Virus record (IMG/VR): IMGVR_UViG_3300033066_000581
Location: 29,272 to 93,271 of that record
Length of the DNA: 64,000 nt
Source of the DNA: a virus
Taxonomy: Duplodnaviria > Caudoviricetes
Strand: one strand, 5' to 3'
Both the position numbers and the translations under genes were made by a program. This document shows positions 42,180 to 55,788 of the stretch, in pieces; the first letter of the stretch is position 1, and each line of letters begins with the position of its first letter. The notes under the pieces are model-generated. The model saw nothing but the letters and a program-made list of their open reading frames with translations, made no database searches and was not told the origin of the DNA.

Positions 42180-43888
42180 TCATTTTTGAATCTTTACGCT
42201 ATAAAAATCTGCTCTCAACCGGCAATGATTTCACTGAGATCATCCTAAACCGGTCGAAATCAACATTGGTCATTGGAACCAACGGTGCTGGTAAGTCTAC
42301 CTTCATCGACGCGTTGACGTATGCGCTGTATGGGAAAGCTTTCCGGAACATCAACAAGCCACAGCTAGTCAACTCGATCACCCAGAAGAACCTGGTCGTT
42401 GAGATCGAATTCAAGATCAACACCAAGCGATATCTTGTCCGCCGTGGGATGAAGCCAAATCTCTTCGAGATCTTCATCAACGGTAACCTTCTTAATCAAA
42501 CTGCCGACGCTAGGGAATACCAGGAATACCTTGAGACCCAGGTGCTGAAGATGAACTTCAAGGCTTTCAGCCAGATTGTCATCCTCGGCAAGGCCAACTA
42601 TGTCCCGTTCATGCAACTTCCGGCCCATCACCGCAGAGAAGTAATCGAAGATCTCCTGGACATCCAGATCTTCTCCAGGATGAACCTCCTTCTGAAGGAG
42701 GACATCTCTAAGAACAAGGAAGACGTGGTCACCAACGACTACGACGTAAAACTTGTCAATCACACCATCGACCTTCATAAGTCTCACCTGGAATCTTTGA
42801 AGAGAAACAACGATGAGGTCATTGCCCAGAAGCGGTTGAAAATCGCCGAGCTTGGAGACGAGATTTCTGAAGCCGAAGCAGCCATCGACTTACTTGAGTC
42901 CAAAAAACAGGATATTGTTAGAGGGATCAGGGATGAGCAGAAGGTAAATTCTAAGTATGAAAATCTTTCTCATTACAAGCTGAAGTTCGAATCCAAGGTT
43001 GAGGCCATCGACAAGGACATCACCTTCTTCGAGAATAACGACAACTGCCCAACATGTAAGCAAGCCATCGACGAGCTATTCAAACAGACAGCCATCGGTG
43101 AACGTTATAACAAGATGATCGAGTATAACGACGCTCTCAAGAAGGTAGACGAAGAACTTCCAAAGTTGGAGAAGCGGCTAGCTGAGATCAGGGCCGCGAA
43201 GGTGTCCTTCGATAAAGCCAACATCGATATTTCTATCCAGAAGTCAAAGCTGGTTAACCTGGCTTCGACCATACGGTCTGTCCAATCAGAGATCGACGAT
43301 CTATCCACGGAGGAACACTTGGAGACAAACCAAGATACGATCCAGGAGCAATACGTTGAGCTTAACAGGTTGTCCAAAGAGCGTGAGAAGCTTCTGGTGT
43401 ACAGAAATACACTAGAGGTTGCTGCCCAACTTCTGAAGGACTCAGGTATCAAGACAAAGATCATCAGACAGTATATTCCGATCATCAACAAGCTGATCAA
43501 CAAATATCTGGCCCAGATGGAATTCTTCGTCAACATTGAACTCAACGAGAAGTTCGAGGAAACCATCAAATCTCGCCACCGTGATGAATTCACCTACTCC
43601 TCATTCTCTGAGGGTGAGAAGTTGCGGATCGATGTGGCTCTGATGTTTGCCTGGAGGGCGATCGCCAAGCTTAAGAACTCGGCGGCGACGAACCTCTTGA
43701 TCTTGGATGAGATCTTCGAGAGCTCTTTGGATGCCAACGGAACAGACGAATTCCTACGTATCCTGGATGAGCTCACCGTTGACACCAACGTCTTTGTTAT
43801 CTCCCACCATGGGGATACGTTGTTCGACAAATTTCACAGCGTTGTGAAATTCGATAAGGTAAAATCATTTAGCAGGATGGTAGTATGA
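42176..43888 (+). CDS. 46: Recombination ATPase gp46 (Rad50-like)
   Basis: GTNGAGKST, CPTC hook, FSEGEK, LDE. Confidence 0.97.
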   Translation: MIIFESLRYKNLLSTGNDFTEIILNRSKSTLVIGTNGAGKSTFIDALTYALYGKAFRNINKPQLVNSITQKNLVVEIEFKINTKRYLVRRGMKPNLFEIFINGNLLNQTADAREYQEYLETQVLKMNFKAFSQIVILGKANYVPFMQLPAHHRREVIEDLLDIQIFSRMNLLLKEDISKNKEDVVTNDYDVKLVNHTIDLHKSHLESLKRNNDEVIAQKRLKIAELGDEISEAEAAIDLLESKKQDIVRGIRDEQKVNSKYENLSHYKLKFESKVEAIDKDITFFENNDNCPTCKQAIDELFKQTAIGERYNKMIEYNDALKKVDEELPKLEKRLAEIRAAKVSFDKANIDISIQKSKLVNLASTIRSVQSEIDDLSTEEHLETNQDTIQEQYVELNRLSKEREKLLVYRNTLEVAAQLLKDSGIKTKIIRQYIPIINKLINKYLAQMEFFVNIELNEKFEETIKSRHRDEFTYSSFSEGEKLRIDVALMFAWRAIAKLKNSAATNLLILDEIFESSLDANGTDEFLRILDELTVDTNVFVISHHGDTLFDKFHSVVKFDKVKSFSRMVV

Positions 43889-44241
43889 CCGAAGGATATA
43901 AGACGATCGTGGCCGGGTCTAGAGGGATCCTGAGCTATATGGAAGTGGTGAAAGCAATCGAAGATGCCCCGTGGGAGATCTCTGAGGTAGTCTGTGGTGG
44001 AGCTGTAGGCCCAGACAGTCTCGGCGAGCGTTGGGCTAGAGTGAATAACATCCCGATCAAGATGATGAAGGCTGATTGGAATAAGCATGGATCTGCTGCT
44101 GGACCTATAAGAAATGCTGAGATGGCTAAATATGCCGACAGGGCCATAGTCGTCTGGGACGGTGAATCTCCTGGCTCGAAAAATATGATCAAGGAGATGA
44201 ACCGGTTGGATAAGAAAACACACGTGAGGGTAGTAATATGA
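43885..44241 (+). CDS. SLOG/YspA-like (DUF2493) protein
   Basis: AGSR, GGA.G.D, AGPIRN..MA, WDG.S.G. Confidence 0.85.
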   Translation: MTEGYKTIVAGSRGILSYMEVVKAIEDAPWEISEVVCGGAVGPDSLGERWARVNNIPIKMMKADWNKHGSAAGPIRNAEMAKYADRAIVVWDGESPGSKNMIKEMNRLDKKTHVRVVI

Positions 44242-44447
44242 AGATTATCGATAAGCTAAGGACCTTATTTGCATGGAAGCTTGATCATGAAACATTTACA
44301 TGGAGATGTGAAGAAAATATGATCACCGGTAAACGTAGAGCCTTCTGTAAAATATCTGGCGGGTATACTCCAATCCCCAATTGGTTATTTGAAGGGCCGC
44401 CCGGATCTTATAGCGTTGGCCCATATGGAAAGCAAGTAGTGGCATGA
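44238..44447 (+). CDS. Hypothetical protein
   Basis: ATGA coupling at both ends. Confidence 0.65.
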   Translation: MKIIDKLRTLFAWKLDHETFTWRCEENMITGKRRAFCKISGGYTPIPNWLFEGPPGSYSVGPYGKQVVA

Positions 44448-44935
44448 GCATCCTAGAATTAGTTCCATCGACGGATCCGATCCTCTCAGAGATCATGCCA
44501 AAGTTCGATTTCGATAAGCCTCCGATTAATCCAGAGCAGTTGGCCGTAGACCTGGCTGAAACAATGATCGCCAACAAAGGCCTTGGGCTCTCCGCCAACC
44601 AGGTTGGATTGAGACACAGAGCTCTTGTGATCACGGGATCCCCGATCATTGCAATTTTCAACCCTCGCATCGTTGACGTGACCCCCGAGGAGATAAATAT
44701 GGAAGAGGGCTGTTTATCATTTCCTGATCTCTTCTTCAAGGTCAAACGTCCAGCGGCCATTAAGATCAGATATCAACGCCCGAACGGCGAAACGGTAACA
44801 GAACAGTATCAAGGGCTAACAGCCAGAATCATTCAACATGAAGTAGACCACCTAGATGGTATAGTATATACCTCACGAGGTAATAGAATTCATGTGGATG
44901 CTGCCAAGAAAAAGATGAGAAAGAAACTCCTATGA
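44444..44935 (+). CDS. def: Peptide deformylase
   Basis: GLGLSANQ, EGCLS, QHEVDH. Confidence 0.95.
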   Translation: MSILELVPSTDPILSEIMPKFDFDKPPINPEQLAVDLAETMIANKGLGLSANQVGLRHRALVITGSPIIAIFNPRIVDVTPEEINMEEGCLSFPDLFFKVKRPAAIKIRYQRPNGETVTEQYQGLTARIIQHEVDHLDGIVYTSRGNRIHVDAAKKKMRKKLL

Positions 44936-45405
44936 GATATTTTCTAGACACAGAGTTCAATGGCTTCGGTGGTGAGCTGATCAGTCTTGCCCTTGTCCGT
45001 GAGGATCTGGAGTCACTTTACATTGTATATGATAAGCCCCTGGCTCCCATCGAACCCTGGGTTGCTGAAAACGTCATTCCTATTCTTTATGCATCAATTT
45101 GCCCAACTTATCAAGGTAAACCGGTTTACATATATGATGGTATTAGCCAAGCCACTGGAGCTAGTATTATTGCAGCCTTTTTGTCTGCAGATGAAAACCC
45201 AGTCATTATCACCGATTGGCCAGATGATGTAAAATATATGTGTGAAGCAATAATCACCGGCCCAGGTGTAATGGCTGCTATCAACCAATTGTCTTTCAAG
45301 ATCGTCAGGTGCGACGCTTACCCAACTGAAGTTGCTGATGCAGTTCAGCACAACGCTTGGTGGGATGCTGTCGCTCTTCGTCAACTACTTCTTCCAACCA
45401 AATAA
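44932..45405 (+). CDS. DEDDh 3'-5' exo(ribo)nuclease
   Basis: FLDTEF...HNA..DA. Confidence 0.8.
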   Translation: MRYFLDTEFNGFGGELISLALVREDLESLYIVYDKPLAPIEPWVAENVIPILYASICPTYQGKPVYIYDGISQATGASIIAAFLSADENPVIITDWPDDVKYMCEAIITGPGVMAAINQLSFKIVRCDAYPTEVADAVQHNAWWDAVALRQLLLPTK

Positions 45406-45420
45406 GGACCATTGTATATC

Positions 45421-45882
45421 ATGAATTTTATCGATGAACGAAATTTTGACGTCAACATCCAATACCAGGGTGAAGAATTATCGTGGCTTGGGGATATCAA
45501 CTTCATGCATGAGAAGTTCGGCATTAACGAAGTGGTTAAGAAGTTCTCTCCAGAACTCTTGAAGGAATTTCTCTTGTTCCGGATCCGTTTCCTAGAGGAA
45601 GAGCTCCAAGAGATGAAGGATGCAGAGTCGGCCGAAGACGTTGTAGACGCTCTTATCGACCTTGTGGTTGTGGCCATCGGAACGCTGGACTCATTCCAAG
45701 TGGATGGCCAAGTAGCCTGGGACGCAGTCTTGGAAGCCAACCTGTCTAAGAATGCAGGGTCAAACCCAACTAGACCTAACGCCTTCGGTCTTCCCGACTT
45801 GATCAAGCCAGAAGGATGGCAAGGCCCATCACACAAAGGTAACCATGGGCTCTTGGCGAAAGTCAAATACCCGCTAAAATAA
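45421..45882 (+). CDS. MazG-like/PRA-PH nucleoside triphosphate pyrophosphohydrolase
   Basis: EEELQE...DALID, ANLSK, LIKPEGW. Confidence 0.85.
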   Translation: MNFIDERNFDVNIQYQGEELSWLGDINFMHEKFGINEVVKKFSPELLKEFLLFRIRFLEEELQEMKDAESAEDVVDALIDLVVVAIGTLDSFQVDGQVAWDAVLEANLSKNAGSNPTRPNAFGLPDLIKPEGWQGPSHKGNHGLLAKVKYPLK

Positions 45883-45884
45883 GG

Positions 45885-45914
45885 GTGTACATTTTACTTC
45901 GGTTGTGATATGAT
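45885..45914 (+). promoter_or_regulatory. Early promoter GTGTAC-N18-TATGAT heading the modification cluster
   Basis: Repeated motif. Confidence 0.8.
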
Positions 45915-45919
45915 GAATT

Positions 45920-46561
45920 ATGAACCGTAATGAACTGAAGGCGCTTCTGCGTCGTACTATCAGCATTCCAAGTGATGACCAAGAAATCTTGGCCAGGACT
46001 AAGATGCTGGCTGAAGGCATCAGGTCTCACCATGGGGTTAACAGGAATGGTAGAGCCAGGTCTGATGAGCAATTCGAGCGTGATTGTCTACTAGGTGTTG
46101 TCCGTGAGATGGCTGTCGCTAAGATCGTTGGTGGTAAACTCAACGACCAAGAATGGAACGTCAATGACCGTTCTTCATTCGCCTGGGATGTTGAAGTTGA
46201 TAACCTGAAGTTGGAGATTAAACCACACTCAGGTGCTGATTACTTCAACCTGTCAGAAGGCATTGCTCGCATCCTATATAACAATAGTTCCTATTTCAAC
46301 TATGTGGTCGCAGTATATGTGGCCGAAAGGTCTGATTGTTTCAAGATCAAACCAATGATGATCATCAGCCCCGATGAATTAACCTTCGGTACCAATAAAT
46401 CGCAGTTCAATAACTGGCAGATCTACTTCGACCACAGACGATATCCACACACACAAATATGGAGTGACAATGAGCCAAACAAGAGAATCAGTGAGAGTCC
46501 TGGAGGAGTGTATCGCACTTCAAAACAAAAAATCTCTGGACTACCAGAACCCCAATTCTAA
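45920..46561 (+). CDS. Hypothetical protein, PD-(D/E)xK nuclease suspected
   Basis: E.AVA...WDV...LEIK; leaderless early promoter. Confidence 0.55.
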   Translation: MNRNELKALLRRTISIPSDDQEILARTKMLAEGIRSHHGVNRNGRARSDEQFERDCLLGVVREMAVAKIVGGKLNDQEWNVNDRSSFAWDVEVDNLKLEIKPHSGADYFNLSEGIARILYNNSSYFNYVVAVYVAERSDCFKIKPMMIISPDELTFGTNKSQFNNWQIYFDHRRYPHTQIWSDNEPNKRISESPGGVYRTSKQKISGLPEPQF

Positions 46562-47012
46562 CGTAACCCAGGCGATGCACTATCGCCGCGGAATTGATTC
46601 TATTTTCGACACGATGTGGGGTAAGATGCTACGCATCCAATCGATCCTAGAGTCAGGCAGTAATCCCAATTTTGAGTCGGTTGAAGATTCCTTCAAGGAT
46701 CTGATCAACTATGCCTCATTCGCCGTCTCATATTCTAGAGGAGCCATGGAAGGCCAGAGTCCAGATCGTGACATCTTCAACCGGCCAAAACCGGTTAAGG
46801 TGGATTTTCAAGACCCCAGTCTTGAAGTGAAATCACCTGGGATTGAAGATACTATCACCAAATATCGTGGCAAGTCGATGCCTGATATTCTAGGTGCAAT
46901 ACCAGAATACGTTCCGATCTGGTGCGCCGTCTCGAGCGAACATGTCAACTTTACGACAACGTTCAATGAACGGTATATCGGCAACCAAGCTACGGGGAAT
47001 GTCTACGGATGA
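46470..47012 (+). CDS. Nucleotide-modification-associated domain protein (DUF1599-like)
   Basis: KK..DY...K..R...ES.EDS..DL.NYA. Confidence 0.8.
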   Translation: MSQTRESVRVLEECIALQNKKSLDYQNPNSNVTQAMHYRRGIDSIFDTMWGKMLRIQSILESGSNPNFESVEDSFKDLINYASFAVSYSRGAMEGQSPDRDIFNRPKPVKVDFQDPSLEVKSPGIEDTITKYRGKSMPDILGAIPEYVPIWCAVSSEHVNFTTTFNERYIGNQATGNVYG

Positions 47013-47758
47013 TTGGTAGCCAGTATGTGTATATTGACACTATTCGTGCAGAATTTGCTGAGCTTCTTAACGAAGGGATCTTTGTAGAAGACAAGACGGG
47101 GGTCAAGCTTCTCGAGATCCCTGCAGCATCCTTTGTGGCATCTGAAGGAACCATCTTTGGTTCTCCCAACGAAGATTATATCCAACGCGAGTTGTCTTGG
47201 TATAGGACTCAGTCACTCAACGTGAATGACATTCCAGGAGGCCCCCCGCAAATTTGGAAAGATGTGGCTGACCCGATGGGCAAGATCAATTCCAACTATG
47301 GCTGGGCCATTTGGTCACCGGACAACGGTGGTCAATATTTCAAGGTCTTGAAAGAGCTTCGTGATAACCCGCTTTCACGTAGAGCCATCATGATTTATAC
47401 CAGGCCTTCGATGTGGTATGATTACAACCTTAATGGCCGGTCGGACTTCATGTGCACCAACACAGTCCAATATCTCATTAGAAATGGAGCTCTCTCGGCG
47501 ATCGTTCAGATGCGGTCTAACGATGTGTTCTCCGGGTATCGGAATGATTATGCCTGGCAAAAGTTCGTCTTAGATGAACTAGCGGCAGCTTTGGACATTC
47601 CTGCTGGTGATATTATCTGGCAGGTTGGGTCTCTTCACATCTATGAACCGCAATTCTATCTGGTTCATCACTATCGTATAACGAGAGAGATCACCATCAC
47701 CAAGAAGAAATACGCCAAAACATATCCTATCTCAGAATGGAAACCAAAAGATGTCTGA
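47009..47758 (+). CDS. 42: dCMP hydroxymethylase (T4 gp42-like)
   Basis: DKTGVK, INSNYGWAIWS, IMIYTRPSM, SDFMCTNTVQY, MRSND...RND (Asp indicates dCMP specificity); close match to T4 gp42 as recalled. Confidence 0.93.
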   Translation: MIGSQYVYIDTIRAEFAELLNEGIFVEDKTGVKLLEIPAASFVASEGTIFGSPNEDYIQRELSWYRTQSLNVNDIPGGPPQIWKDVADPMGKINSNYGWAIWSPDNGGQYFKVLKELRDNPLSRRAIMIYTRPSMWYDYNLNGRSDFMCTNTVQYLIRNGALSAIVQMRSNDVFSGYRNDYAWQKFVLDELAAALDIPAGDIIWQVGSLHIYEPQFYLVHHYRITREITITKKKYAKTYPISEWKPKDV

Positions 47759-47975
47759 AGTTCATGTACTACGGATAACAGTGAAACAGGATGGTAACGG
47801 TTATCCAATCCAACCGGTTACTACTATCGCTGGAATTTACGATGATGAAACCAAACTGGAAAAAGATTTAGCAGGTATAGTTAAGAACCCGTACTTTGGT
47901 TCAGGCTCGCATGCTGTAACAACCTACAAGCTCAATGAGGATTACAGTGGGTATTCTAAGTACTGGAAAGACTAA
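47751..47975 (+). CDS. Hypothetical protein
   Basis: Overlapping ORF within the operon. Confidence 0.65.
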   Translation: MSEVHVLRITVKQDGNGYPIQPVTTIAGIYDDETKLEKDLAGIVKNPYFGSGSHAVTTYKLNEDYSGYSKYWKD

Positions 47976-47977
47976 AA

Positions 47978-48439
47978 ATGCATAGTATTCTGGAAGAAGA
48001 TAAGTGGACCAGGCGCTACGTAGCCTTGGCCAAACATATATCTGATTGGTCTAAGGATCCTTCAACCAAATGTGGTGCTGTGGTTATCGGTGACCATGGA
48101 CAGGTTCTGTCGACGGGTTTCAACGGGTTTCCTCGAGGTATCGCAGATGATAGTCGGCTGCATGACCGTGAAACCAAGTATAAGCACATCATCCATGCTG
48201 AGATGAACGCCATCTATAATGCATCCTTGACATCAGTATCCTTGAACGGTTCGACTCTATACGTTTATGGTCTTCCGGTGTGTGCTCATTGTGCCCTGGG
48301 GATTATTCAATCAGGCATCAAGACTGTGGCGGTTGCTTACCCGCGAAATATTCCAGACAAATGGAAAGAATCCGGTGAATTAACAGAAGCCCTATTCTCA
48401 GAAGCAGGAGTGCGATATTTCCAGTTCTTTGCTGATTGA
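47978..48439 (+). CDS. cd: dCMP deaminase
   Basis: SKDP, GFNGFP, HAEMNA, VCAHC. Confidence 0.92.
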   Translation: MHSILEEDKWTRRYVALAKHISDWSKDPSTKCGAVVIGDHGQVLSTGFNGFPRGIADDSRLHDRETKYKHIIHAEMNAIYNASLTSVSLNGSTLYVYGLPVCAHCALGIIQSGIKTVAVAYPRNIPDKWKESGELTEALFSEAGVRYFQFFAD

Positions 48440-49469
48440 ACCTACTGAATATTACGACGAATTTAAGCGTTACTACGGGCTTGCTAAGAAGCAGCAGGAA
48501 CTCTGTAATCTAGGTTCAGTTCCTCATGAGTTGTCTGAGGTGAACGACTCCTTGATGGAGAATGTTCACCTGTATGACGTAGTTGAACGTAAGTATGCCG
48601 GGTTCTCTCAAATCGTTAACGACTGCTTCTACGGAACAGGTGAAGAACATCCATACTACCATAAGCTGCAAACTGGCGACGTCACCAACCAACGTAGAAT
48701 AGTAACTGAGGACTGGAACGGCAAGAGAGACACATTTGGTTTGGCCGAATGGCTCTATGTTTTCATCGTCCACCGTATTACTGGTTCAGGCATCAACTAT
48801 GCCAAGAAGCCTTCTGGATATCATAACACCATCCTGTTCCATCTACATCAGGCTGATGACGTGCATGGTATGGCCAAACTGATCAAGAACTACCCAGCCA
48901 CGTTCTATACGTCTGGTGGTTATCAGTTCCCACAATTCCCCAAGCCAACTTCTGATTATAGGAAAGGTGGAGACTACTATCTTTGTGAATTTGCCACACT
49001 TCTGTCGTACGACTTGGCCTGCTGGTTGGTTCATCAGAAAGAAAAGCCAGGGCTTCGCGATATCATAGATTTCATGCTGGTATGGAACGTTGAGCATGGG
49101 TTGAAGCAGTACAAGTTCCAGTACGCCGCAGTCGCTGCTGATATTGCTGACTGGTTCCCAGATCTTGTAGACCGTGACTCTATGTTCACGTACGGTTCGA
49201 ATGCTAGAGAAGCTATGTCGTATATGGCCACACCGAAGGTCAAGATGAAGCAGGATGATTTTCTGGATGCAGTTATGGAAATGGGATGTTCTGACCTAGA
49301 TGCCAAGCCTTATAACCTCGAGGACTGCTTTTGTGACGCGATTCGATGGCTTGAGAACTATTGTGGCAAAGGTGGTGACTATGATCACCTAGACCTTAGC
49401 CAGATCTGGAATTCCTCACATCTCAAACATCCACATGGGAGGCAGCGTTGGCTCACAACAACCACGTAA
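48429..49469 (+). CDS. Putative amino acid:DNA transferase (aG/PT-pyrophosphorylase, HhH-glycosylase-like)
   Basis: HRITGS, F......AD, GSNA, LED..CD..R pattern and neighbourhood; family call from memory. Confidence 0.6.
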   Translation: MLIEPTEYYDEFKRYYGLAKKQQELCNLGSVPHELSEVNDSLMENVHLYDVVERKYAGFSQIVNDCFYGTGEEHPYYHKLQTGDVTNQRRIVTEDWNGKRDTFGLAEWLYVFIVHRITGSGINYAKKPSGYHNTILFHLHQADDVHGMAKLIKNYPATFYTSGGYQFPQFPKPTSDYRKGGDYYLCEFATLLSYDLACWLVHQKEKPGLRDIIDFMLVWNVEHGLKQYKFQYAAVAADIADWFPDLVDRDSMFTYGSNAREAMSYMATPKVKMKQDDFLDAVMEMGCSDLDAKPYNLEDCFCDAIRWLENYCGKGGDYDHLDLSQIWNSSHLKHPHGRQRWLTTTT

Positions 49470-50344
49470 TTGATGGCATTAACAAGGATGCGGTCAACAT
49501 TTTCGAGGGCTTCAATACCAGGGCTGGAGCCAAGGAACACTACCTAAGGTTGGCCGATGGGTTCATTCCATACAACCCAGATCCTGTTGTCATCGAACAT
49601 GATGGAGTCCGGGTGGTTCGTGATGACTTGATTGTTGGAACTAAGACCAGGGCAGGTGATATGCTCATGTCCAAGGCCAACCAAAAAACGATCGTCTATT
49701 CCCAGCCACGTACCGGCCTGGCCGGTGTTTCAATCTTAGATTGTGCCAGGCAACATGACAGAGAAGTGGTTCTGTTCATGCCAGCATCTAAACGTATCTC
49801 GTTGCATCAGGCCTGTTGTATCGAACAGGGTGCCAAACCCATCTTCCAACGCATTGCGGCGATGCCCAACCTCAACCGTTTGGCCAAGATCTGGGCAGAA
49901 GAGAACGATGGCTTCTTTATCCCACTCGGCCTAAGACACGAATACGCAACAGCCGGTATCGTGCATGCGGCCTCTATGATTGACGAACCAGACGAGGTTT
50001 ACGTAGCCATCTCAACGGGTGTATTGTCCCGGGCCCTTCAAATCGCCTGGCCAAACGCCAAGTTCCACGAGGTGGCTGTTGCTAGAAACCTTAAGGCCGG
50101 TGAAGCCGGTGAGGTTGATGAATTGATCAGCGACCCTCTACCGTTCACAACCCCAGAAAAGGCTGAGAACCTGCCACCGTTCCCGTGTGTGGCCACATAC
50201 GACTCGAAGGTGTGGAAATATATTCCAAAGAACACCGGCCGAAATATTCTCTTCTGGAACGTCGGAAAAGAACCTGTACTCCAGGATGAGAGCATATATA
50301 ATACCGTGAACTCCTATAGAGACTGGGACAAAAATTTATCATGA
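49448..50344 (+). CDS. PLP-dependent enzyme, fold type II
   Basis: VRDD...GTKTR (PLP lysine), STG.L.R, YD.K.W, LFWNVG. Confidence 0.8.
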   Translation: MAHNNHVIDGINKDAVNIFEGFNTRAGAKEHYLRLADGFIPYNPDPVVIEHDGVRVVRDDLIVGTKTRAGDMLMSKANQKTIVYSQPRTGLAGVSILDCARQHDREVVLFMPASKRISLHQACCIEQGAKPIFQRIAAMPNLNRLAKIWAEENDGFFIPLGLRHEYATAGIVHAASMIDEPDEVYVAISTGVLSRALQIAWPNAKFHEVAVARNLKAGEAGEVDELISDPLPFTTPEKAENLPPFPCVATYDSKVWKYIPKNTGRNILFWNVGKEPVLQDESIYNTVNSYRDWDKNLS

Positions 50345-51450
50345 AACGCCTCCTAACATCACCATTCAACGCTATCTCCAGCTCTATGCATTCCCATAGG
50401 GCTGCACAGGGTGTCATCTACGCCGACATGATCTATCGAGGTGGGAATGCCGTTGATATAGATTTTGGCAACAAGGCCAACTACGATGACTACGACACCC
50501 TGTTAATCTATCATGGAAATGATTGGTCAGGATCTCTCAACCTTTTCGGTGGGATGAAGGCCTTTGCCGGCATTGATCGGATCATTGAGCTTTCAAACTA
50601 TAAAGGTCAAGTCGTATCTTTGATTGAAGATATGCCTGATTATCATGGTATTCTATATGAGCGTTACAAGAAACTGGATGACCTCAATAGTCAATGGCAT
50701 AAGGTTAACTGGGAAGGTATGGCAAGTCTTGAGTCGAGATCGATTACGCTTAGCTTGCAGGACTTAAACAGCTATAGTGAACAATACGCAATTGGCACAC
50801 TACCAAGAACACTAGTGATTGGTGACTCTCATGCCATCTCCTTATATTGCCCTGGTACAGAAATGAACTCTGTTCCATTCAAGACCTTGCATGGTGCTCT
50901 GAATGAAGGCCTGGAAACATTCCTCCTTAATCCCAAAGGCCTCAAGGAAGTGGATTCTTATTTTGGGAATATCGATATCCGTCACCATCTGATGAGACAA
51001 GAAAATCCTAGCATCGCCGCAAAACAGCTAGCTCAAAGATACGTATACGAAGCCACACTGCTGGCTGACAAGTACGAATTGTCCAATTGGAATATCTTTG
51101 TGCCGCTGCCTATAGAGGATGAATCACGCCAAGTTCCTAAGACAGGTTGGTATAAGGGAACTCCATTCTTCGGATCATGGAAAGAACGTAACCAGATTCG
51201 AACCGAATTCAACGGTTGGCTACGGGTTTTTGCGCGCCTTGTCACAAAGGCAAAGATAACTATCGTCGATGATTGGGCTGATGGATTAATGAACTCTGGT
51301 GGTCAACTGGATTTCAAGCACATGGAGAAGCCCAGGTCCATCCACCTCTCGAGGGCATCATACCCGTTCTGGACTGGGCAATATTGGAATGATGGTAATG
51401 GCTCCTTGGCCAAGAAGGCTGAAGGCATCGAAGGGTTTTTTGGAGAATAA
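50341..51450 (+). CDS. Fusion: beta-glucosyltransferase-like N-domain plus SGNH-like C-domain
   Basis: DYD.L...LNLFGG...YKG resembles the T4 BGT N-terminus; IGDSH, GNID and terminal HL match SGNH blocks. Confidence 0.5.
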   Translation: MKRLLTSPFNAISSSMHSHRAAQGVIYADMIYRGGNAVDIDFGNKANYDDYDTLLIYHGNDWSGSLNLFGGMKAFAGIDRIIELSNYKGQVVSLIEDMPDYHGILYERYKKLDDLNSQWHKVNWEGMASLESRSITLSLQDLNSYSEQYAIGTLPRTLVIGDSHAISLYCPGTEMNSVPFKTLHGALNEGLETFLLNPKGLKEVDSYFGNIDIRHHLMRQENPSIAAKQLAQRYVYEATLLADKYELSNWNIFVPLPIEDESRQVPKTGWYKGTPFFGSWKERNQIRTEFNGWLRVFARLVTKAKITIVDDWADGLMNSGGQLDFKHMEKPRSIHLSRASYPFWTGQYWNDGNGSLAKKAEGIEGFFGE

Positions 51451-51451
51451 T

Positions 51452-52102
51452 ATGGCAGACTGGATTAGAATTACTAAAGATAATTATAAAGACCTAAAGG
51501 TTGGTATGGCATTTGCTGCCAAGCTTAAGTATAGTGAACCTGGTGTATATAACATATACATTGGGTATATCGAAGATCTCTTACCTCCGAATAATGGCCT
51601 AGGCATATGGCTTAAGGGGCGTGTAATTACTGATAGTGTGGGTCCTTATATGGATTATTCCATAAGTGAAAGCCTTATAGACCTTTTGGATGAAATGAAG
51701 CTGTATTCAACCTTCCGTAAATTTACGGAACAGGACACTAAATTGACAGAATTCGTGACCCTGAGTTATGCATCCGACCCTCATATCTCTATGCCTCCTT
51801 CAAAACCTAAGAGCAGTTCTATTGACTATCGCTTCGGCGAGGATGGTTACATCGACGAACTGAAGACCTATATCGATGCAACCTACGGTGCCCACTATTC
51901 AGGTAAGGTGGGTCCAATGGATATCATGATCGCTGGGGGTCAGGCTCTAGGATTTATTGTCGGAAGTATCATAAAATACGCATTCCGCCTAGGAAAAAAA
52001 GATAACTATAAGCGTGACGACGTGCTGAAGATTGCACACTACGCTATTCTCCTCCTCCACACATATGACGTTTTGAAACTAGGAGACAAGAAAGATGGTT
52101 AA
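51452..52102 (+). CDS. Protein with C-terminal DUF3310-like domain
   Basis: HY...GF..G.IIKY..R.GKK...D.LK..HY. Confidence 0.75.
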   Translation: MADWIRITKDNYKDLKVGMAFAAKLKYSEPGVYNIYIGYIEDLLPPNNGLGIWLKGRVITDSVGPYMDYSISESLIDLLDEMKLYSTFRKFTEQDTKLTEFVTLSYASDPHISMPPSKPKSSSIDYRFGEDGYIDELKTYIDATYGAHYSGKVGPMDIMIAGGQALGFIVGSIIKYAFRLGKKDNYKRDDVLKIAHYAILLLHTYDVLKLGDKKDG

Positions 52103-52277
52103 ATTTAGAGTATATTTTATGGAGAGAAGTCCTCTCGAGACTACTGCATCTCATTGGGAACTTCTCAATGGAAACACCTTGCACTTTTTTAATCTCGGTA
52201 AAAGCTTATCCAAGCAAACTGAATTAGTGCTTGGACCCAATACTTATTGGACAACATTTGAAAGAAAGGAAGACTAA
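52095..52277 (+). CDS. Hypothetical protein
   Basis: AGGAG SD; lies within the operon. Confidence 0.6.
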   Translation: MVKFRVYFMERSPLETTASHWELLNGNTLHFFNLGKSLSKQTELVLGPNTYWTTFERKED

Positions 52278-52278
52278 T

Positions 52279-53145
52279 TTGACGTTTGAAATCAAGATGC
52301 CGATTGAGGAGCTCAAGAAGCGAAAACTTATGGTCGCGACACCGATGTACGGTGGCATGGCCGCGGGCATGTTTACGAAGTCGATCGCAGATTTGTCGGC
52401 ACTGTGTGTACATTATGGAATTACCCTCCAGATGTACTTCTTGTTCAACGAGAGCTTGATCACTCGGGCCCGCAACTATTGCTGTGACGAATTTATGCGA
52501 TCCGATTTCCATCATCTGATGTTTATCGATGCTGATATCGGATTCAACCCACACGACGTAATTGCTCTGATGGCTATGCAGGCCTCCGATCCCAAATACG
52601 ATATCGTCTGTGGGCCCTATCCTAAGAAGTGTATCTCTTGGGAGAAGATCAAGATGGCCGTTGATAAGGGCCACGCTGACGAGAACCCAGAGAACCTGAA
52701 TAACTTCGTTGGTGATTATGTCTTCAATCCTAAGGCCGGTGTCAGTGAGATCCCGATCGGGGAACCGGCCGAAGTTTCTGAGGGCGGTACCGGATTCATG
52801 ATGATCGCCCGGGAAACGCTGGACCGGTATAAGCTAGCTTATCCGGAACAGATGTATAAGCCAGACCATGTTCGTACCGAGCATTTTGATGGCACCCGCG
52901 AGATCATGGCGTACTTTGATTGCATCATCGACCCAGAATCTAGACGTTATCTCTCAGAGGATTACAACTTCTGTTATCATGCCCAGAAGGCAGGTATGTC
53001 AGTATGGCTATGCCCATGGATGCAGCTGCAACATGTTGGGACGTTCGTCTTCGGTGGGTCTCTTGCAGCCCTGGCTTCTATCGGCGCCTCGGCCACTGCA
53101 TCTGTTGATGATTTGAAAAAACCTAAGCCAAAAAACAAAAAGTAA
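52279..53145 (+). CDS. GT-A glycosyltransferase-like protein
   Basis: ATPMYGG, ESLITRARN, FIDADI, GTGFM, LSEDY.FC; TTG start. Confidence 0.85.
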   Translation: MTFEIKMPIEELKKRKLMVATPMYGGMAAGMFTKSIADLSALCVHYGITLQMYFLFNESLITRARNYCCDEFMRSDFHHLMFIDADIGFNPHDVIALMAMQASDPKYDIVCGPYPKKCISWEKIKMAVDKGHADENPENLNNFVGDYVFNPKAGVSEIPIGEPAEVSEGGTGFMMIARETLDRYKLAYPEQMYKPDHVRTEHFDGTREIMAYFDCIIDPESRRYLSEDYNFCYHAQKAGMSVWLCPWMQLQHVGTFVFGGSLAALASIGASATASVDDLKKPKPKNKK

Positions 53146-53157
53146 CCTATAGTTAAC

Positions 53158-53892
53158 CTACAGTTTCTTATTCCATGGAACCTTTCCTAGCATATGCCCA
53201 GGATTGGTTTCGTAGAATTTAGCAATTGAAGCTCTTCTTTTAAGTTTTGTGGCTTCTGATTGTTTGACCCCACTGCTTGATATCTTATTTTTCTTTGATA
53301 TTTCCATAAGAATTGGGTTTGTGTGCTTAGTTTGCCCCTTACACCAACTAGGTTTTCCTCGCATTTTCAACCCAGCGGCTGTAGTGTTAGCTAAAACCCT
53401 AGGGTCAGTTTTCGTTAATCCACAATTCCAGGATTTATTGAGTCTTCCTAATGTAAATCCGAAAGGCTCTTCACCAGGAATGAACATCTTAGCAATAACT
53501 CCATTGTTGTAAAACTTGGTGCCTCTAGTATTTGAAGTTTTTGCTATGGTTTCTTTTAATGCTGCATATTGTCTTGATGTAAGTTTGAAATATTGATCTT
53601 TATGCCAAACGTTTGATCTTTGCATATTAAAGAATGCTAGAGACATAGAATAGTTTTCATACGTTTTCCATAGTAACATATGTGCAATGAAGTGCTGTCT
53701 TGGTGTTAGCTTGACTATATTTTCAAGAGATTTTGCGTGTTGCTTAAACATCGATTTTGGAAGAATGTGGTGTTTTTCAACATATCGGGTGGCATCAATA
53801 TGTTGGAGTTTACAAAATTCAATAAATTTAATGTAACGTTCAAGGTATCGACTGTTGTGCCTGATACTAGTTAACTCTTGATAAATATTCAT
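53158..53892 (-). mobile_element. HNH homing endonuclease with NUMOD3-like repeats, antisense insertion
   Basis: EKHHILPKS...ENIV.LT.RQHF.AH.LL; PWNK/SWNCG repeats; AT-rich. Confidence 0.92.
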
Positions 53893-53948
53893 TCTGGAGA
53901 TCTCCCGGTTTCTAGCGTGGTTGGACGTTAGTAGCGTCGCGAACCACT

Positions 53949-53956
53949 TATTTATA
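53949..53956 (-). promoter_or_regulatory. Late promoter TATAAATA of the HNH gene
   Basis: Exact consensus on the minus strand. Confidence 0.8.
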
Positions 53957-54057
53957 GGATGTTGGAAATCAGCTTCGCAGCTCAAGAGAAATCAACCAGT
54001 TAGCGCTGAACCGGTTAAGGTGACCAAACCCCGAGCTAAGGCCGCCCGCAAATAGTT

Positions 54058-54087
54058 GTTTACATCAGACCCAGTCTGTGATACAAT
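54058..54087 (+). promoter_or_regulatory. Early promoter GTTTAC-N18-TACAAT before gene 45
   Basis: Variant with T4-like GTTTAC -35 box. Confidence 0.75.
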
Positions 54088-54111
54088 ATGAATAAGTGAA
54101 AAAGGAATAAC

Positions 54112-54786
54112 ATGAAATTAGAACCACGCACGATTCAGATCCTGAAGAACTTTGCATCCATCAACCCCTCCCTGATTTTTAATGAGGGTGTTGATGGTTC
54201 TGTGATCTCAACGGTTTCGCCAGCAAAGACTATTCTAGCCAAGGCGAAGATTAAGGAGAATATCCCATGCCGATTTGGGATCTATGACGTTAATAGGTTC
54301 ATCAATGCTATGTCGATCTTTCCGGAGGCCGATATCGAACCTACCGAGAAGGTGGTTACGATCAAGGGGCCAAACGGTGCAGTAACCCGTTACACGTGTA
54401 CTGATCCGGCAAATATCATTGCGCCCCCCGCCAAGGAAATTACTATGCCCAAGGTGGATGTTGAATTCAGCTTGACAGATCTCGATTTTACCAAGGCCAT
54501 GAAAGCGCTGAGTATTCTAGGTCTACCAGAAGTTGCGATCGTTGGTGATAGGGAGATTGTCTATATCCAGGCCATCGACTCTAAGAATCCAACTTCTGAC
54601 AACTTTAAGCTTCCGGTTGGAAAGACCGATGCAGAGTTCCGGTTCATCTTCAAGGCTGAGAACCTGAAGATTCTGTCCGGTGACTATGCCGTAAAGATCT
54701 CCTCCAAAGGCCTGGCCAATTTTGTAGGCGCGAATGTGGAATACTATATCGCAGTTGAGTCGAACGGAAGTTCCTTTACAGCCTAA
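54112..54786 (+). CDS. 45: Sliding clamp gp45
   Basis: ILKNFA.IN, F.IYD...F, K.ENL. Confidence 0.94.
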   Translation: MKLEPRTIQILKNFASINPSLIFNEGVDGSVISTVSPAKTILAKAKIKENIPCRFGIYDVNRFINAMSIFPEADIEPTEKVVTIKGPNGAVTRYTCTDPANIIAPPAKEITMPKVDVEFSLTDLDFTKAMKALSILGLPEVAIVGDREIVYIQAIDSKNPTSDNFKLPVGKTDAEFRFIFKAENLKILSGDYAVKISSKGLANFVGANVEYYIAVESNGSSFTA

Positions 54787-54840: not shown

Positions 54841-55788
54841 ATGAATACAGATCTAATACAATCAGTGTGGGTGGAGAAGTATCGTCCTCATACGATCGGC
54901 GATACTATCCTCCCTAAGCAGCTCAAAGAGACTTTCCAGAGTTTCGTTGATCAAAACCATATTCCCAATATGATCTTAGCTGGTTCGGCCGGCGTCGGTA
55001 AGACTACAGTAGCAAAGGCGCTTTGCGATCAGCTCGGTTGTGACTATATAGTCATCAACGGGTCTCTGAACGGTAATATCGATACCCTACGTAACGAGAT
55101 CATGACCTTTGCGTCGACGATCTCCTTTACCGGTGGTCGTAAATACGTGATCATCGATGAGTTTGATTACGTCAACCCCAACTCAACACAACCTGCCTTG
55201 CGGAACTTCATGGAAGAATTCTCCAAGAACTGCGGGTTCATCTTCACGTGTAATTTCAAACATCGGATCATCGAACCTCTACATTCTCGTTGTGCGGTGA
55301 TTGATTTCTCTATCCCAAATGGAGAAAAGGCCGAGCTTGCACGCCAGTTCATGCAACGCATCCAAGAGATCCTAGCTGCTGAGAATGTGACGTATGATTC
55401 CAAGGCAGTGGCCGGAGTCATTAAGCAGTACTTCCCAGATTGGCGTCGTGTGATCAACGAGATCCAACGTTACGCTTCATCAGGTCCTATCGATAGTGGA
55501 ATTCTGTCGACCTTTAAAGACTCGCATCTAACACCTCTTATCGGCTTCATCAAGGAAAAGAACTTCACCGGAGTTCGTAAATGGGTCGGTGAAAACTCTG
55601 ATCTGGATCAAACCACAATCTTCAGAGCACTTTACGACACCTTGACAGGCGAGCTAACAACTGCTTCTATCCCGCAATTAGTCCTTATCCTGGCCGACTA
55701 CCAATACAAGGCGGCCTTTTGCGCTGATCATGAGATCAACATCTCAGCCTGTTTGGTTGAGATCATGGCAGGGTGTGACTTCGTATGA
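54841..55788 (+). CDS. 44: Clamp loader large subunit gp44
   Basis: WVEKYRP, G.GKTT, DE.D, SRC. Confidence 0.97.
   Translation: MNTDLIQSVWVEKYRPHTIGDTILPKQLKETFQSFVDQNHIPNMILAGSAGVGKTTVAKALCDQLGCDYIVINGSLNGNIDTLRNEIMTFASTISFTGGRKYVIIDEFDYVNPNSTQPALRNFMEEFSKNCGFIFTCNFKHRIIEPLHSRCAVIDFSIPNGEKAELARQFMQRIQEILAAENVTYDSKAVAGVIKQYFPDWRRVINEIQRYASSGPIDSGILSTFKDSHLTPLIGFIKEKNFTGVRKWVGENSDLDQTTIFRALYDTLTGELTTASIPQLVLILADYQYKAAFCADHEINISACLVEIMAGCDFV

What the first reader, a model, noticed from the sequence alone, without database searches (positions are those of the whole stretch)
45421..53145. Candidate new DNA hypermodification pathway: cytosine hydroxymethylase coupled to enzymes known from thymidine hypermodification
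Seen: one contiguous, largely overlapping gene run of MazG-like NTPase, putative nuclease, DUF1599-like protein, gp42-like hydroxymethylase, dCMP deaminase, putative amino acid:DNA transferase, fold-II PLP enzyme, BGT-like/SGNH fusion, DUF3310-like protein and a GT-A. Known: T4 gp42 makes 5hm-dCMP, and the Asp in RND selects dCMP (Asn selects dUMP). Amino acid:DNA transferases with PLP decarboxylases act on 5hmU in phages ViI and M6, after a 5hmU DNA kinase. Inference: here that chemistry may act on 5hmC, giving an amine-, amino-acid- or sugar-decorated and perhaps acylated cytosine. Alternatively the adjacent deaminase converts 5hm-dCMP to 5hm-dUMP, an unorthodox entry to hypermodified T. No 5hm-DNA kinase is recognisable in the window.
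Basis: partly seen in the sequence, partly recalled or inferred. Interest (0 to 1): 0.88.

Follow-up and report, generated by a model that had tools for sequence, protein, structure and literature searches.

The report
Kinase-less hydroxymethylcytosine DNA hypermodification cassette
An uncultured T4-like phage makes T4's hydroxymethylcytosine but, in place of T4's sugar-adding enzymes, carries a widespread three-enzyme kit related to the one that hangs amino acids on thymine in other phages, so its DNA probably bears a decorated cytosine that nobody has yet identified chemically.

Summary
All ten genes are at the stated coordinates on a 93-kb IMG/VR T4-like phage contig about 52% complete.

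- **Hydroxymethylase:** T4-type (E 4e-86 to gp42), with all three residues that mark 5hmC rather than T or 5-hydroxy-C.
- **Partners:** a fold-II PLP enzyme and a protein whose C-terminal half has an SGNH acyl-enzyme fold. Seven database clusters are natural fusions of that protein with the 346-aa protein.
- **Kinase:** no 5-hmdU-DNA-kinase domain anywhere on the contig.

Most likely reading (0.6): 5hmC in DNA is activated by the SGNH protein, substituted by the transferase-like enzyme and tailored by the PLP enzyme.

- ThyX lies upstream on the contig, so the deaminase serves ordinary dTMP supply.
- The GT-A-like gene is a backbone gene, also present in phages with no hydroxymethylase.
- This phage has the minimal one-paralogue form of the cassette.

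The scan has met this cassette before on other DNA (59 notes, at least 45 genomes). No paper in the held library describes it.

The parts
45412..45882 (+). MazG-like NTP pyrophosphohydrolase; inferred to deplete dCTP, the role of gp56 in T4
   Evidence: PF01503 E 8.8e-6; phrog_671 E 9e-18. Adjacent to the cassette in 19 related loci. The dCTPase role is inference.
45920..46561 (+). DenB-like endonuclease IV homolog; in T4, DenB cuts unmodified C-containing DNA
   Evidence: phrog_1360 E 2.3e-9. In T4 relatives denB has the same distribution as gene 42 (PMC2993671).
46464..47012 (+). DUF1599 / nucleotide-modification-associated domain 1 protein
   Evidence: PF07659 E 1.4e-6, 28.9 bits, above the cut-off. 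Linked to gp42 in 32 related loci.
47009..47758 (+). T4-type dCMP hydroxymethylase (5hm-dCMP synthase)
   Evidence: E 4.2e-86 to T4 gp42 (1b5e). SDFMC: catalytic Cys, and Asp at the E. coli L143 position. MRSND: Asp169 kept. RND: N177 replaced by Asp. The diagnostic residues come from PMC13326640.
47751..47975 (+). 74-aa ORF of unknown function
   Evidence: No Pfam or PHROG hit. No homolog in the related loci.
47978..48439 (+). dCMP deaminase (cd-like), feeding dUMP to ThyX
   Evidence: PF00383 E 2.4e-17; phrog_174 E 2e-39. ThyX lies at contig 17162-17731.
48429..49469 (+). X346: HhH-glycosylase-fold enzyme of the aGPT-Pplase (AADT / HMUDK_hel) superfamily, with putative catalytic Glu298 and Cys302; it lacks the family's C-terminal ~45 residues
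49448..50344 (+). Fold-type II PLP-dependent enzyme; candidate Schiff-base Lys66 in GTKTR
   Evidence: phrog_7093 E 7e-35. Family profile versus cysteine synthase E 0.006. Homologs at 29-35% identity in Erythrobacter and Microcystis phages pass PF00291 and are fused to, or next to, DNA methylases.
50341..51450 (+). Y369: two-domain protein. N-domain (about 1-150) is faintly like the N-lobe of T4 beta-glucosyltransferase; C-domain (about 155-345) has the SGNH acyl-enzyme fold
51452..52102 (+). DUF3310 protein with an N-terminal extension of about 120 aa
   Evidence: PF11753 E 1.9e-9; phrog_480 E 6e-19. Occupies the same position in 9 related loci.
52231..53145 (+). GT-A-like protein (phrog_1574); a backbone gene of this T4-like lineage and probably not part of the cassette
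   Evidence: phrog_1574 E 1e-59. Homologs in DLP_6, Cr30, Sinorhizobium phiM7/M19/N3 and cyanophages. Same slot before gp45 in phages that lack gp42.

Best explanation
The run is a two-stage DNA-modification cassette.

Stage 1, at the nucleotide level:
- A T4-type dCMP hydroxymethylase makes 5hm-dCMP.
- A MazG-like pyrophosphatase and a DenB-like nuclease disfavour unmodified C.
- dCMP deaminase together with ThyX (elsewhere on the contig) supplies ordinary dTMP.

Stage 2, on the DNA polymer, is inferred. Three co-inherited enzymes convert 5hmC into an unidentified non-sugar derivative.
- Y369 has an SGNH acyl-enzyme domain behind an N-domain that may bind the flipped 5hmC. It stands where thymidine pathways have the 5-hmdU DNA kinase. 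It most likely turns the hydroxymethyl oxygen into a leaving group, for example by O-acylation.
- X346 is an HhH-glycosylase-fold member of the aGPT-Pplase superfamily. It uses Cys302 and Glu298 as clade-2 aGPT-Pplases do: it attacks C6, expels the leaving group and lets an amine or amino acid add to the exocyclic methylene.
- The fold-II PLP enzyme then tailors the attached amino acid. Decarboxylation, as by ViI gp226, is the precedent.

What is shown and what is inferred:
- Shown here: the gene identities, folds, motifs, gene linkage and protein fusions.
- Inferred: the substrate, the order of the steps, the acyl-activation step and the product.
For: - **Hydroxymethylase identity:** E 4e-86 to T4 gp42, with Asp at the positions of E. 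coli ThyA L143 and N177, and Asp169 kept (criteria in PMC13326640). The same residues occur in all 34 linked homologs.
- **X346 motif:** EDCFC 298-302 matches gp46 ETILC 243-247. Per PMC8989533 the conserved Cys and neighbouring Glu of clade-2 aGPT-Pplases are needed for activity, tested by mutation in M6 gp51 and ViI gp247. In PaMx11 gp46 these are E243 and C247. Glu and Cys are kept in 67 of 69 superfamily representatives.
- **Language-model neighbours:** the nearest clusters carry PF18723, and some carry PF18724.
- **PLP enzyme:** homologs pass PF00291 and are fused to DNA methylases. ViI gp226 is also fold II.
- **Fusions:** seven representative clusters are Y369-X346 fusions.
- **Linkage:** in 29 loci with at least 6 kb on both sides, Y369 occurs in 24, gp42 in 18 and PLP in 18. 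Fourteen loci carry gp42, Y369, PLP and the second paralogue together.
- **Cultured carriers:** Y369 homologs occur in Aeromonas phages 31, 44RR and 25, which have gene 42 but no glucosyltransferase.
- **No kinase:** no PF18748 or PF18723 match on the contig.
Against: - No chemistry was measured.
- A CheckV-complete 174-kb relative (G001) has X346 and its paralogue but no TS homolog, TET, C5-methylase or DUF1599. The pair is therefore not strictly tied to TS-made 5hmC.
- SGNH enzymes are mostly hydrolases, and no acyl donor is evident.
- The contig is only about 52% complete and carries two generic P-loop kinases, so a kinase cannot be excluded.
- This phage's X346 lacks the conserved C-terminal ~45 residues. 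The second paralogue, present in 72 of 80 loci (counts), is absent here.
Confidence: 0.6

Rival explanations
1. X346, Y369 and the PLP enzyme do not act on 5hmC in DNA. They act on another substrate, such as a free nucleotide or base, RNA or tRNA, or another DNA base. Their linkage to gene 42 would then only reflect a shared 'nucleotide metabolism' neighbourhood.
For: - G001 is a CheckV-complete 174-kb genome with X346 and its paralogue. It has no TS homolog, TET, C5-methylase or DUF1599.
- Five of 29 well-flanked loci show only the paralogue pair.
Against: - The best structural match and the Glu/Cys motif point to DNA-acting transferases.
- 18 of 29 well-flanked loci carry gp42 within 10 kb, and all of those are of the dCMP type.
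- PLP-domain homologs are fused to DNA methylases.
- Y369 homologs occur in gene-42 phages that lack glucosyltransferases.
Confidence: 0.15
2. The adjacent deaminase converts 5hm-dCMP to 5hm-dUMP, and the cassette then builds a hypermodified thymine as in ViI, M6 or PaMx11.
For: - The deaminase gene lies between gp42 and X346.
- All characterised aGPT-Pplase pathways act on 5hmU (PMC8989533).
Against: - ThyX lies on the same contig (E 1.9e-41), which gives the deaminase its ordinary role of dUMP supply for dTMP. T4 itself carries cd.
- No Asn-type (dUMP) hydroxymethylase is linked in any of 34 loci.
- No 5-HMUDK is found.
- cd is missing from several cassettes that keep gp42, X346, PLP and Y369, for example L011, L016 and L040.
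Confidence: 0.07
3. In this particular phage stage 2 is decaying. X346 has lost its conserved C-terminal tail and the paralogous partner is gone. The DNA would then carry plain 5hmC or only a partial modification.
For: - X346 ends at GRQRWLTTTT where the family continues for about 45 conserved residues (HPSDD...YK).
- No paralogue is found anywhere on the 93-kb contig.
- The UDG-fold and C5-methylase-like genes seen in relatives are also absent here.
Against: - Proteins at 69% identity (P0003, P0004) share the short end. In alignment A1, which includes them and the window protein, more than 100 columns are invariant, Glu298 and Cys302 among them. That argues for continued selection.
- Eight of 80 loci also lack the paralogue yet keep Y369, with or without PLP.
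- All genes are intact and tightly packed.
Confidence: 0.1
4. X346 is a true DNA glycosylase or lyase, used for instance against host or competitor DNA or in repair of modified DNA, rather than a group transferase.
Against: - The conserved E-D-x-x-C-D motif is the aGPT-Pplase signature. From general knowledge, not checked here, HhH glycosylases use an HhH-GPD Asp or Lys instead.
- Fusion to an SGNH protein and linkage to a PLP enzyme fit a biosynthetic role.
Confidence: 0.05

Closest known systems
Thymidine hypermodification pathways of phages M6, PaMx11, ViI, PhiW-14 and SP10 (dUMP hydroxymethylase; 5-HMUDK kinase; clade-2 aGPT-Pplase = amino acid:DNA transferase; PLP decarboxylase or other tailoring enzymes), PMC8989533 and PMC11472151
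   Same: - A TS-family hydroxymethylase supplies a 5-hydroxymethylpyrimidine.
- An HhH-glycosylase-fold enzyme carries a conserved Glu-x3-Cys motif, and its best structural match is PaMx11 gp46.
- In relatives this enzyme often comes as a paralogous pair.
- A fold-II PLP enzyme is linked; ViI gp226 is also fold II.
   Different: - The hydroxymethylase is dCMP-specific and T4-like, so the base is C, not T.
- There is no P-loop 5-HMUDK and no PF18723 or PF18748 match. A protein with an SGNH fold is the constant partner instead, and is sometimes fused to X346.
- X346 matches neither PF18724 nor PF18723 by sequence.
- This window has one paralogue, not two.
- The product is unknown.
T-even 5hmC pathway (T4 gp42, gp56, gp1, cd, DenB, alpha- and beta-glucosyltransferases)
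   Same: - gp42 orthologue at about 60% identity with all diagnostic residues.
- cd-like deaminase and DenB-like nuclease.
- T4-like replication-gene backbone (gp46, gp45, gp44).
   Different: - No alpha- or beta-glucosyltransferase. At most a faint echo of the BGT N-lobe in Y369, whose second domain is SGNH rather than a UDP-glucose-binding lobe.
- A MazG-like enzyme where T4 has the gp56 dCTPase.
- ThyX rather than td.
5-hydroxycytosine / arabinosyl-cytosine pathway of RB69 and DLP3 (PMC13326640)
   Same: A gp42-like TS homolog in a T4-like phage without glucosyltransferases, followed by post-replicative decoration.
   Different: - 5hoC synthases have Asn at the E. coli ThyA D169 position. 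This enzyme and all linked homologs keep Asp (MRSND).
- No gene of the run gave a match to an NDP-sugar enzyme, and no arabinosyltransferase was recognised; neither family was searched for by name.
Aeromonas phages 31, 44RR2.8t and 25 (cultured T4 relatives with gene 42 but no glucosyltransferase)
   Same: - They carry a Y369 homolog (28-34% identity, E down to 6e-44; predicted-structure match E 1.5e-29).
- Phage 31, the one checked here, has a 5hmC-type gp42 (MRSND, RND).
   Different: - In phage 31 and its closest relatives (hits spanning residues 1-341/345) the Y369 part is the N-terminal 335 aa of a 795-aa ORF. Its C-terminal 460 aa show no detectable similarity to X346; there is only an EIACC motif near the end.
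- No X346 match and no homolog of the PLP enzyme was found in cultured Aeromonas phages.

Membership tests
T4-type dCMP hydroxymethylase (5hm-dCMP synthase) | Full-length sequence similarity to T4 gp42 and a catalytic Cys | tested here: met
   phmmer E 4.2e-86 over residues 7-239 against 1b5e; FMCTNT Cys conserved.
T4-type dCMP hydroxymethylase (5hm-dCMP synthase) | Asp at E. coli ThyA N177 (dCMP specificity), an acidic residue at L143 (water access) and Asp169 retained (Asn marks 5hoC synthases) | tested here: met
   RNDYAWQK, SDFMC and MRSND. Criteria from PMC13326640.
T4-type dCMP hydroxymethylase (5hm-dCMP synthase) | Produces 5hm-dCMP from dCMP and methylene-THF | not testable with these tools
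   Needs an enzyme assay or in vivo LC-MS.
Amino acid:DNA transferase (clade-2 aGPT-Pplase, Pfam PF18724 ADDT) | Sequence match to PF18724 | tested here: not met
   No Pfam hit at E up to 10 for 21 family members. No PF18724 match on the contig at E up to 1. hhalign versus PaMx11 gp46 probability 0.3, versus ViI gp247 0.3.
Amino acid:DNA transferase (clade-2 aGPT-Pplase, Pfam PF18724 ADDT) | Two-helical-bundle, HhH-glycosylase-like fold as in PUGT (8z2m) | tested here: met
Amino acid:DNA transferase (clade-2 aGPT-Pplase, Pfam PF18724 ADDT) | Essential Cys with a neighbouring essential Glu (E243/C247 in PUGT) | tested here: met
   EDCFC at 298-302 versus ETILC at 243-247, at matching distance from the end of the structural alignment. 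Glu 67/69 and Cys 67/69 across representatives. No residue-level superposition was available.
Amino acid:DNA transferase (clade-2 aGPT-Pplase, Pfam PF18724 ADDT) | Works downstream of a P-loop 5-hmdU DNA kinase encoded with it | tested here: not met
   No PF18748 or PF18723 match on the 93-kb contig. Only generic AAA_33 kinases, 40-50 kb away. The contig is about 52% complete.
5-hmdU DNA kinase helical domain (clade-1 aGPT-Pplase, Pfam PF18723 HMUDK_hel) | Sequence match to PF18723 | tested here: inconclusive
   No HMM match. hhalign versus PaMx11 gp50 E 0.06, with a collinear YP..T..Y...KP..G...LRE..GDFM motif. ESM-atlas neighbours (score 0.98, 24 of 30 hits) are clusters in which 13% of members carry PF18723.
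Fold-type II PLP-dependent enzymes (Pfam PF00291 PALP) | Match to PF00291 and a Schiff-base lysine | tested here: inconclusive
   The window protein itself gives no Pfam hit at E up to 0.01. Homologs at 29-35% identity score 40.6 and 46.3 bits against a cut-off of 35. Family profile versus cysteine synthase E 0.006. Lys66 in GTKTR is invariant, but its equivalence to the PLP lysine was not aligned.
SGNH/GDSL hydrolase superfamily | Three-layer alpha/beta/alpha SGNH fold | tested here: met
SGNH/GDSL hydrolase superfamily | Block I GDS Ser, block III GxND Asn and block V His | tested here: met
   GDSH (Ser163), GNID (Asn210) and His335 are invariant in 22 sequences. The usual Asp of DxxH is absent; Glu329 is invariant instead.
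T4 beta-glucosyltransferase (Pfam PF09198) | Match to the BGT family and a UDP-glucose-binding C-lobe | tested here: not met
   Only sub-threshold N-lobe hits: E 0.068 for the window protein, and 9 of 22 members with best E 0.0016 against a cut-off of 27 bits. The second domain is SGNH, not a GT-B lobe. BGT was not recovered by PDB sequence or fold searches.
GT-A glycosyltransferases (for 52231-53145) | Match to a GT-A family and a DxD motif | tested here: inconclusive
   A homolog gives only sub-threshold Anp1, GT2 and GT2_3 hits, E 0.004-0.08. The family profile finds nothing in PDB. A FIDADIGF motif is present. One record is annotated 'dpG-synthase-like'.

The most novel reading that the evidence does not exclude
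A widespread group of aquatic T4-like phages activates 5-hydroxymethylcytosine in DNA without a kinase. An SGNH acyl-enzyme built on a glucosyltransferase-like DNA-binding half would O-acylate the base. A new clade of aGPT-Pplase enzymes would then replace the acyl group with an amino acid, which a PLP enzyme tailors. The result would be the first amino-acid-derived hypermodified cytosine and the first acyl-activated nucleobase substitution in DNA.
Probability: 0.25. Interest if true: 0.9.

Novelty: new variant of a known kind. Interest (0 to 1): 0.68.

Why it matters
By the papers read here, described pyrimidine hypermodifications of the amino-acid or amine type sit on thymine, and described decorations of 5hmC or 5hoC are sugars or a carbamoyl group.

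This cassette would extend transferase/PLP chemistry to cytosine, and would do so without the DNA kinase those pathways use. It occurs at 572 loci in IMG/VR and in more than 850 protein clusters. A large share of environmental T4-like phages may therefore carry a base that current sequencing, restriction and defence-system studies do not account for.

It would also supply new enzymes that act on 5hmC in DNA, of interest for epigenetic labelling. It further points to cultured Aeromonas phages as a place where part of the chemistry could be measured now.

Within this scan the cassette is a repeat find. This window adds four things: the minimal one-paralogue form, the ThyX argument against the deaminase route, evidence that the GT-A-like gene is backbone, and the superfamily-wide Glu/Cys count.

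Tried and rejected
1. **Sequence membership of X346 in PF18724 or PF18723.** No Pfam hits, no matches on the contig, and hhalign to PaMx11 gp46, gp50 and ViI gp247 was not significant.
2. **5-hydroxycytosine synthase reading of the gp42 homolog.** Rejected, because Asp169 is kept.
3. **Deaminase-to-5hmU route.** Disfavoured, because ThyX is present.
4. **GT-A-like gene as part of the pathway.** Rejected as backbone.
5. **Co-loss of X346's C-terminal tail and the missing paralogue.** Rejected: the eight other loci without the paralogue encode the tail (in L008 on a split ORF).
6. **C-terminal 460 aa of Aeromonas phage 31 ORF233c as a divergent X346.** No similarity by hhalign, hmmsearch or PDB search. 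Only an EIACC motif is present.
7. **Placing the Y369 N-domain by structure.** The SGNH domain filled every list. A PDB sequence search of the N-domain found nothing.
8. **Profiles of Y369 and the GT-A-like protein against PDB sequences.** Nothing useful.
9. **PLP profile versus ViI gp226.** Only a 31-column C-terminal motif, E 0.003, probability 10%.
10. **Promoter and terminator scan of 44000-54500.** No excess over shuffles.
11. **Literature.** No paper in the held library links aGPT-Pplase-type enzymes or SGNH proteins to dCMP hydroxymethylase. Iyer et al. 2013 was not held.
12. The look-up of encoding contigs and the look-up of sequencing runs were closed, so metagenome context and run or expression data were not obtained.

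Full report
**Setting**

The window is bases 29272-93271 of a 93,271-bp IMG/VR viral contig that CheckV rates about 52% complete. The backbone is T4-like:
- a gp46-type SMC/Rad50-like ATPase (42176-43888), a peptide deformylase and an RNase H-like protein lie upstream;
- a gp45 clamp (54112-54786) and a gp44 clamp loader (54841-55788) lie downstream.

Between these lies the reported run. It is entirely on the + strand, and most stops overlap the next start.

**Check of the observation**

| Gene (window coordinates) | Result |
|---|---|
| MazG-like, 45412-45882 | PF01503; phrog_671 |
| Nuclease, 45920-46561 | DenB-like endonuclease IV, phrog_1360 |
| DUF1599, 46464-47012 | PF07659, above cut-off |
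| TS homolog, 47009-47758 | confirmed, see below |
| dCMP deaminase, 47978-48439 | PF00383 |
| X346, 48429-49469 | no Pfam or PHROG match, see below |
| PLP enzyme, 49448-50344 | phrog_7093 'threonine dehydratase'; no Pfam match |
| Y369, 50341-51450 | two PHROGs of unknown function; no Pfam match |
| DUF3310, about 51452-52102 | PF11753 |
| GT-A-like, 52231-53145 | phrog_1574 only; no Pfam match |

An HNH homing endonuclease on the minus strand (53158-53985) separates the run from gp45.

**The hydroxymethylase**

It aligns to T4 dCMP hydroxymethylase over its whole length (E 4.2e-86). A 2026 paper shows that some gp42-like enzymes, RB69 gp48 among them, make 5-hydroxy-dCMP instead. It gives the diagnostic residues in E. 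coli ThyA numbering (PMC13326640):
- N177 replaced by Asp marks dCMP specificity;
- L143 replaced by Asp or Glu marks a non-methyl product;
- D169 replaced by Asn marks 5hoC synthases.

The window enzyme reads SDFMC, MRSND and RND. It is therefore dCMP-specific, of the hydroxymethyl type, and not a 5hoC synthase. All 34 gp42 homologs linked to X346 in related loci read the same way.

**The 346-aa protein (X346)**

It has no match in Pfam, PHROGs, PDB sequences or cultured phages. It does have more than 850 metagenomic relatives at about 58% identity and 572 IMG/VR loci.

- *Motif.* Clade-2 aGPT-Pplases need a conserved Cys and a nearby Glu. In PUGT these are E243 and C247. PaMx11 gp46 reads ETILC at 243-247, gp50 (HMUDK_hel) reads EHTLC, and X346 reads EDCFC at 298-302. 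The position relative to the end of the structural alignment agrees: 317 in the model against 264 in the chain.
- *Conservation.* In 69 full-length representatives found by a profile search of 1.84 billion proteins, Glu298 and Cys302 are each kept in 67, Asp238 in all 69 and Arg116 in 67.
- *Sequence membership.* X346 is nevertheless not a sequence member of PF18724 or PF18723. Language-model neighbours point to clusters that partly carry PF18723, and some carry PF18724.

I therefore place X346 in the aGPT-Pplase superfamily as a new clade. I do not place it inside ADDT.

**The PLP enzyme**

Its family profile weakly matches cysteine synthases (E 0.006). It has homologs at 29-35% identity in Erythrobacter phages R6L and ZS04 and in Microcystis phage Mae-JY30.

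The R6L and Mae-JY30 homologs, the two scanned, pass PF00291 at 40.6 and 46.3 bits against a cut-off of 35. The R6L copy is fused to an N6/N4 DNA methylase domain and the Mae-JY30 copy lies next to one. This fold-II PLP domain is thus repeatedly tied to DNA-modifying enzymes. ViI gp226, the O-serinyl-thymidine decarboxylase, is also fold II. Direct comparison with it gives only a short C-terminal motif.

**The 369-aa protein (Y369)**

- *N-terminal domain.* Fold searches did not place it, because the SGNH domain filled every list. PF09198 (T4 beta-glucosyltransferase) is hit below threshold by 9 of 22 members, best E 0.0016, always in the N-lobe region. The BGT echo is a lead, not a result.
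- *Cultured homologs.* Homologs occur in Aeromonas phages 31, 44RR2.8t and 25. These phages have gene 42 but no glucosyltransferase. Phage 31's gp42 is of the 5hmC type.

**Linkage and fusions**

The cassette order in close relatives is mazG, DUF1599, gp42, cd, X346, PLP, Y369, DUF3310, GT-A-like, gp45.

Among 29 loci with at least 6 kb on each side of X346:

| Gene present | Loci (of 29) |
|---|---|
| Y369 | 24 |
| gp42 | 18 |
| PLP enzyme | 18 |

Seven representative clusters are natural Y369-X346 fusions: P0143, P0156, P0167, P0186, P0206, P0211 and P0213. This is the strongest evidence that the two proteins act together.

A paralogous pair of aGPT-Pplases with a PLP enzyme is the hallmark of thymidine-hypermodification clusters. 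The differences here are the cytosine-type hydroxymethylase and the SGNH partner in place of the kinase.

**What is particular to this window**

- The UDG-fold and C5-methylase-like genes seen in relatives are also absent.
- X346 lacks the family's conserved C-terminal ~45 residues, and its stop overlaps the PLP start. Proteins at 69% identity share this short end and keep all invariant columns. I therefore read it as a tolerated lineage trait rather than decay, and keep decay as a rival at 0.1.

- ThyX is on the contig at 17162-17731 (E 1.9e-41). The deaminase together with ThyX gives an ordinary dTMP route.
- The GT-A-like gene is a backbone gene. In Stenotrophomonas phage DLP_6 (66% identity) and Caulobacter phage Cr30 (57%) it sits in the same slot between the deformylase and gp45, with none of the cassette genes. 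DLP_6 has no TS homolog at all, and Cr30 has only a canonical ThyA.
- 'No kinase' holds for 5-HMUDK-type domains. Two generic AAA_33/zeta-toxin-like kinases do exist on the contig, and half the genome is unseen.

**A caution**

**Mechanism proposed**

- *Shown:* the gene identities, folds, motifs, linkage and fusions.
- *Inferred:* 5hmC is incorporated as in T4. Y369 takes the place of the kinase and activates the hydroxymethyl group, most simply by O-acylation. X346 then performs the Cys-dependent substitution known from clade-2 aGPT-Pplases, with an amine or amino acid as nucleophile. The PLP enzyme tailors the adduct.

I give the overall reading (a post-replicative, non-sugar modification of 5hmC) 0.6, and the specific acyl-activation scheme about 0.25.

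**Prior knowledge**

No paper in the held library describes such a cassette. The scan itself has met it before: 59 notes in at least 45 genomes. Follow-up agents called it a kinase-less hydroxymethylcytosine hypermodification cassette. I reached the same reading before looking those notes up.

Noticed in passing
window 53158-53985 (-): HNH homing endonuclease (phrog_655 E 2e-32) inserted between the GT-A-like gene and gp45. It is the only minus-strand gene in this stretch.
   Followed up: no
contig G000:C1:17162-17731 (-), outside the window (locus L090): ThyX flavin-dependent thymidylate synthase (PF02511 E 1.9e-41). It is the phage's own dTMP route.
   Followed up: partly
window 6685-7188 (-) and contig 26634-27335 (-) (L083:11634-12335): Two AAA_33/zeta-toxin-type P-loop kinases (167 and 233 aa; phrog_6931, 12810, 2071 and 505). 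They belong to the same broad superfamily as the PaMx11 gp49 kinase but are not HMUDK-type. Their role is unknown.
   Followed up: partly
L087:5001-7388 (Aeromonas phage 31 PHG31ORF233c): In a cultured gene-42 phage the Y369 homolog is the N-terminal 335 aa of a 795-aa ORF. The C-terminal 460 aa have no detectable relatives in PDB or to X346, but carry an EIACC motif 46 residues from the end. This could be a very divergent transferase domain.
   Followed up: partly
L085:4816-7236 (Erythrobacter phage vB_EliS_R6L gp1) and L086:5111-6702 (Microcystis phage Mae-JY30): A fold-II PLP domain is fused to, or adjacent to, N6/N4 DNA methylase and ParB-like proteins, and is annotated only as 'DNA modification methylase'. 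This suggests another undescribed PLP-dependent DNA modification.
   Followed up: partly
L046 (record G001, 174,359 bp, CheckV 100%): A complete T4-like genome with X346 and its paralogue but no thymidylate-synthase homolog, TET/JBP, C5-methylase or DUF1599. The substrate of the pair there is unexplained.
   Followed up: partly
L015:9598-10005 and L015:14087-15286: Relatives carry a UDG-fold 135-aa gene just before X346 and a C5-cytosine-methylase-like 399-aa gene between Y369 and DUF3310. Both are absent from this window.
   Followed up: no
window 49430-49469: X346 ends in GRQRWLTTTT and lacks the family's conserved C-terminal ~45 residues (HPSDD...YK). Its stop lies inside the start of the PLP gene. 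Relatives at 69% identity share the short end.
   Followed up: yes
window 43885-44241 and 44444-44935: A YAcAr/SLOG-family protein (PF10686) and a peptide deformylase lie between gp46 and the cassette. The deformylase is part of the conserved backbone also seen in DLP_6 and Cr30.
   Followed up: no
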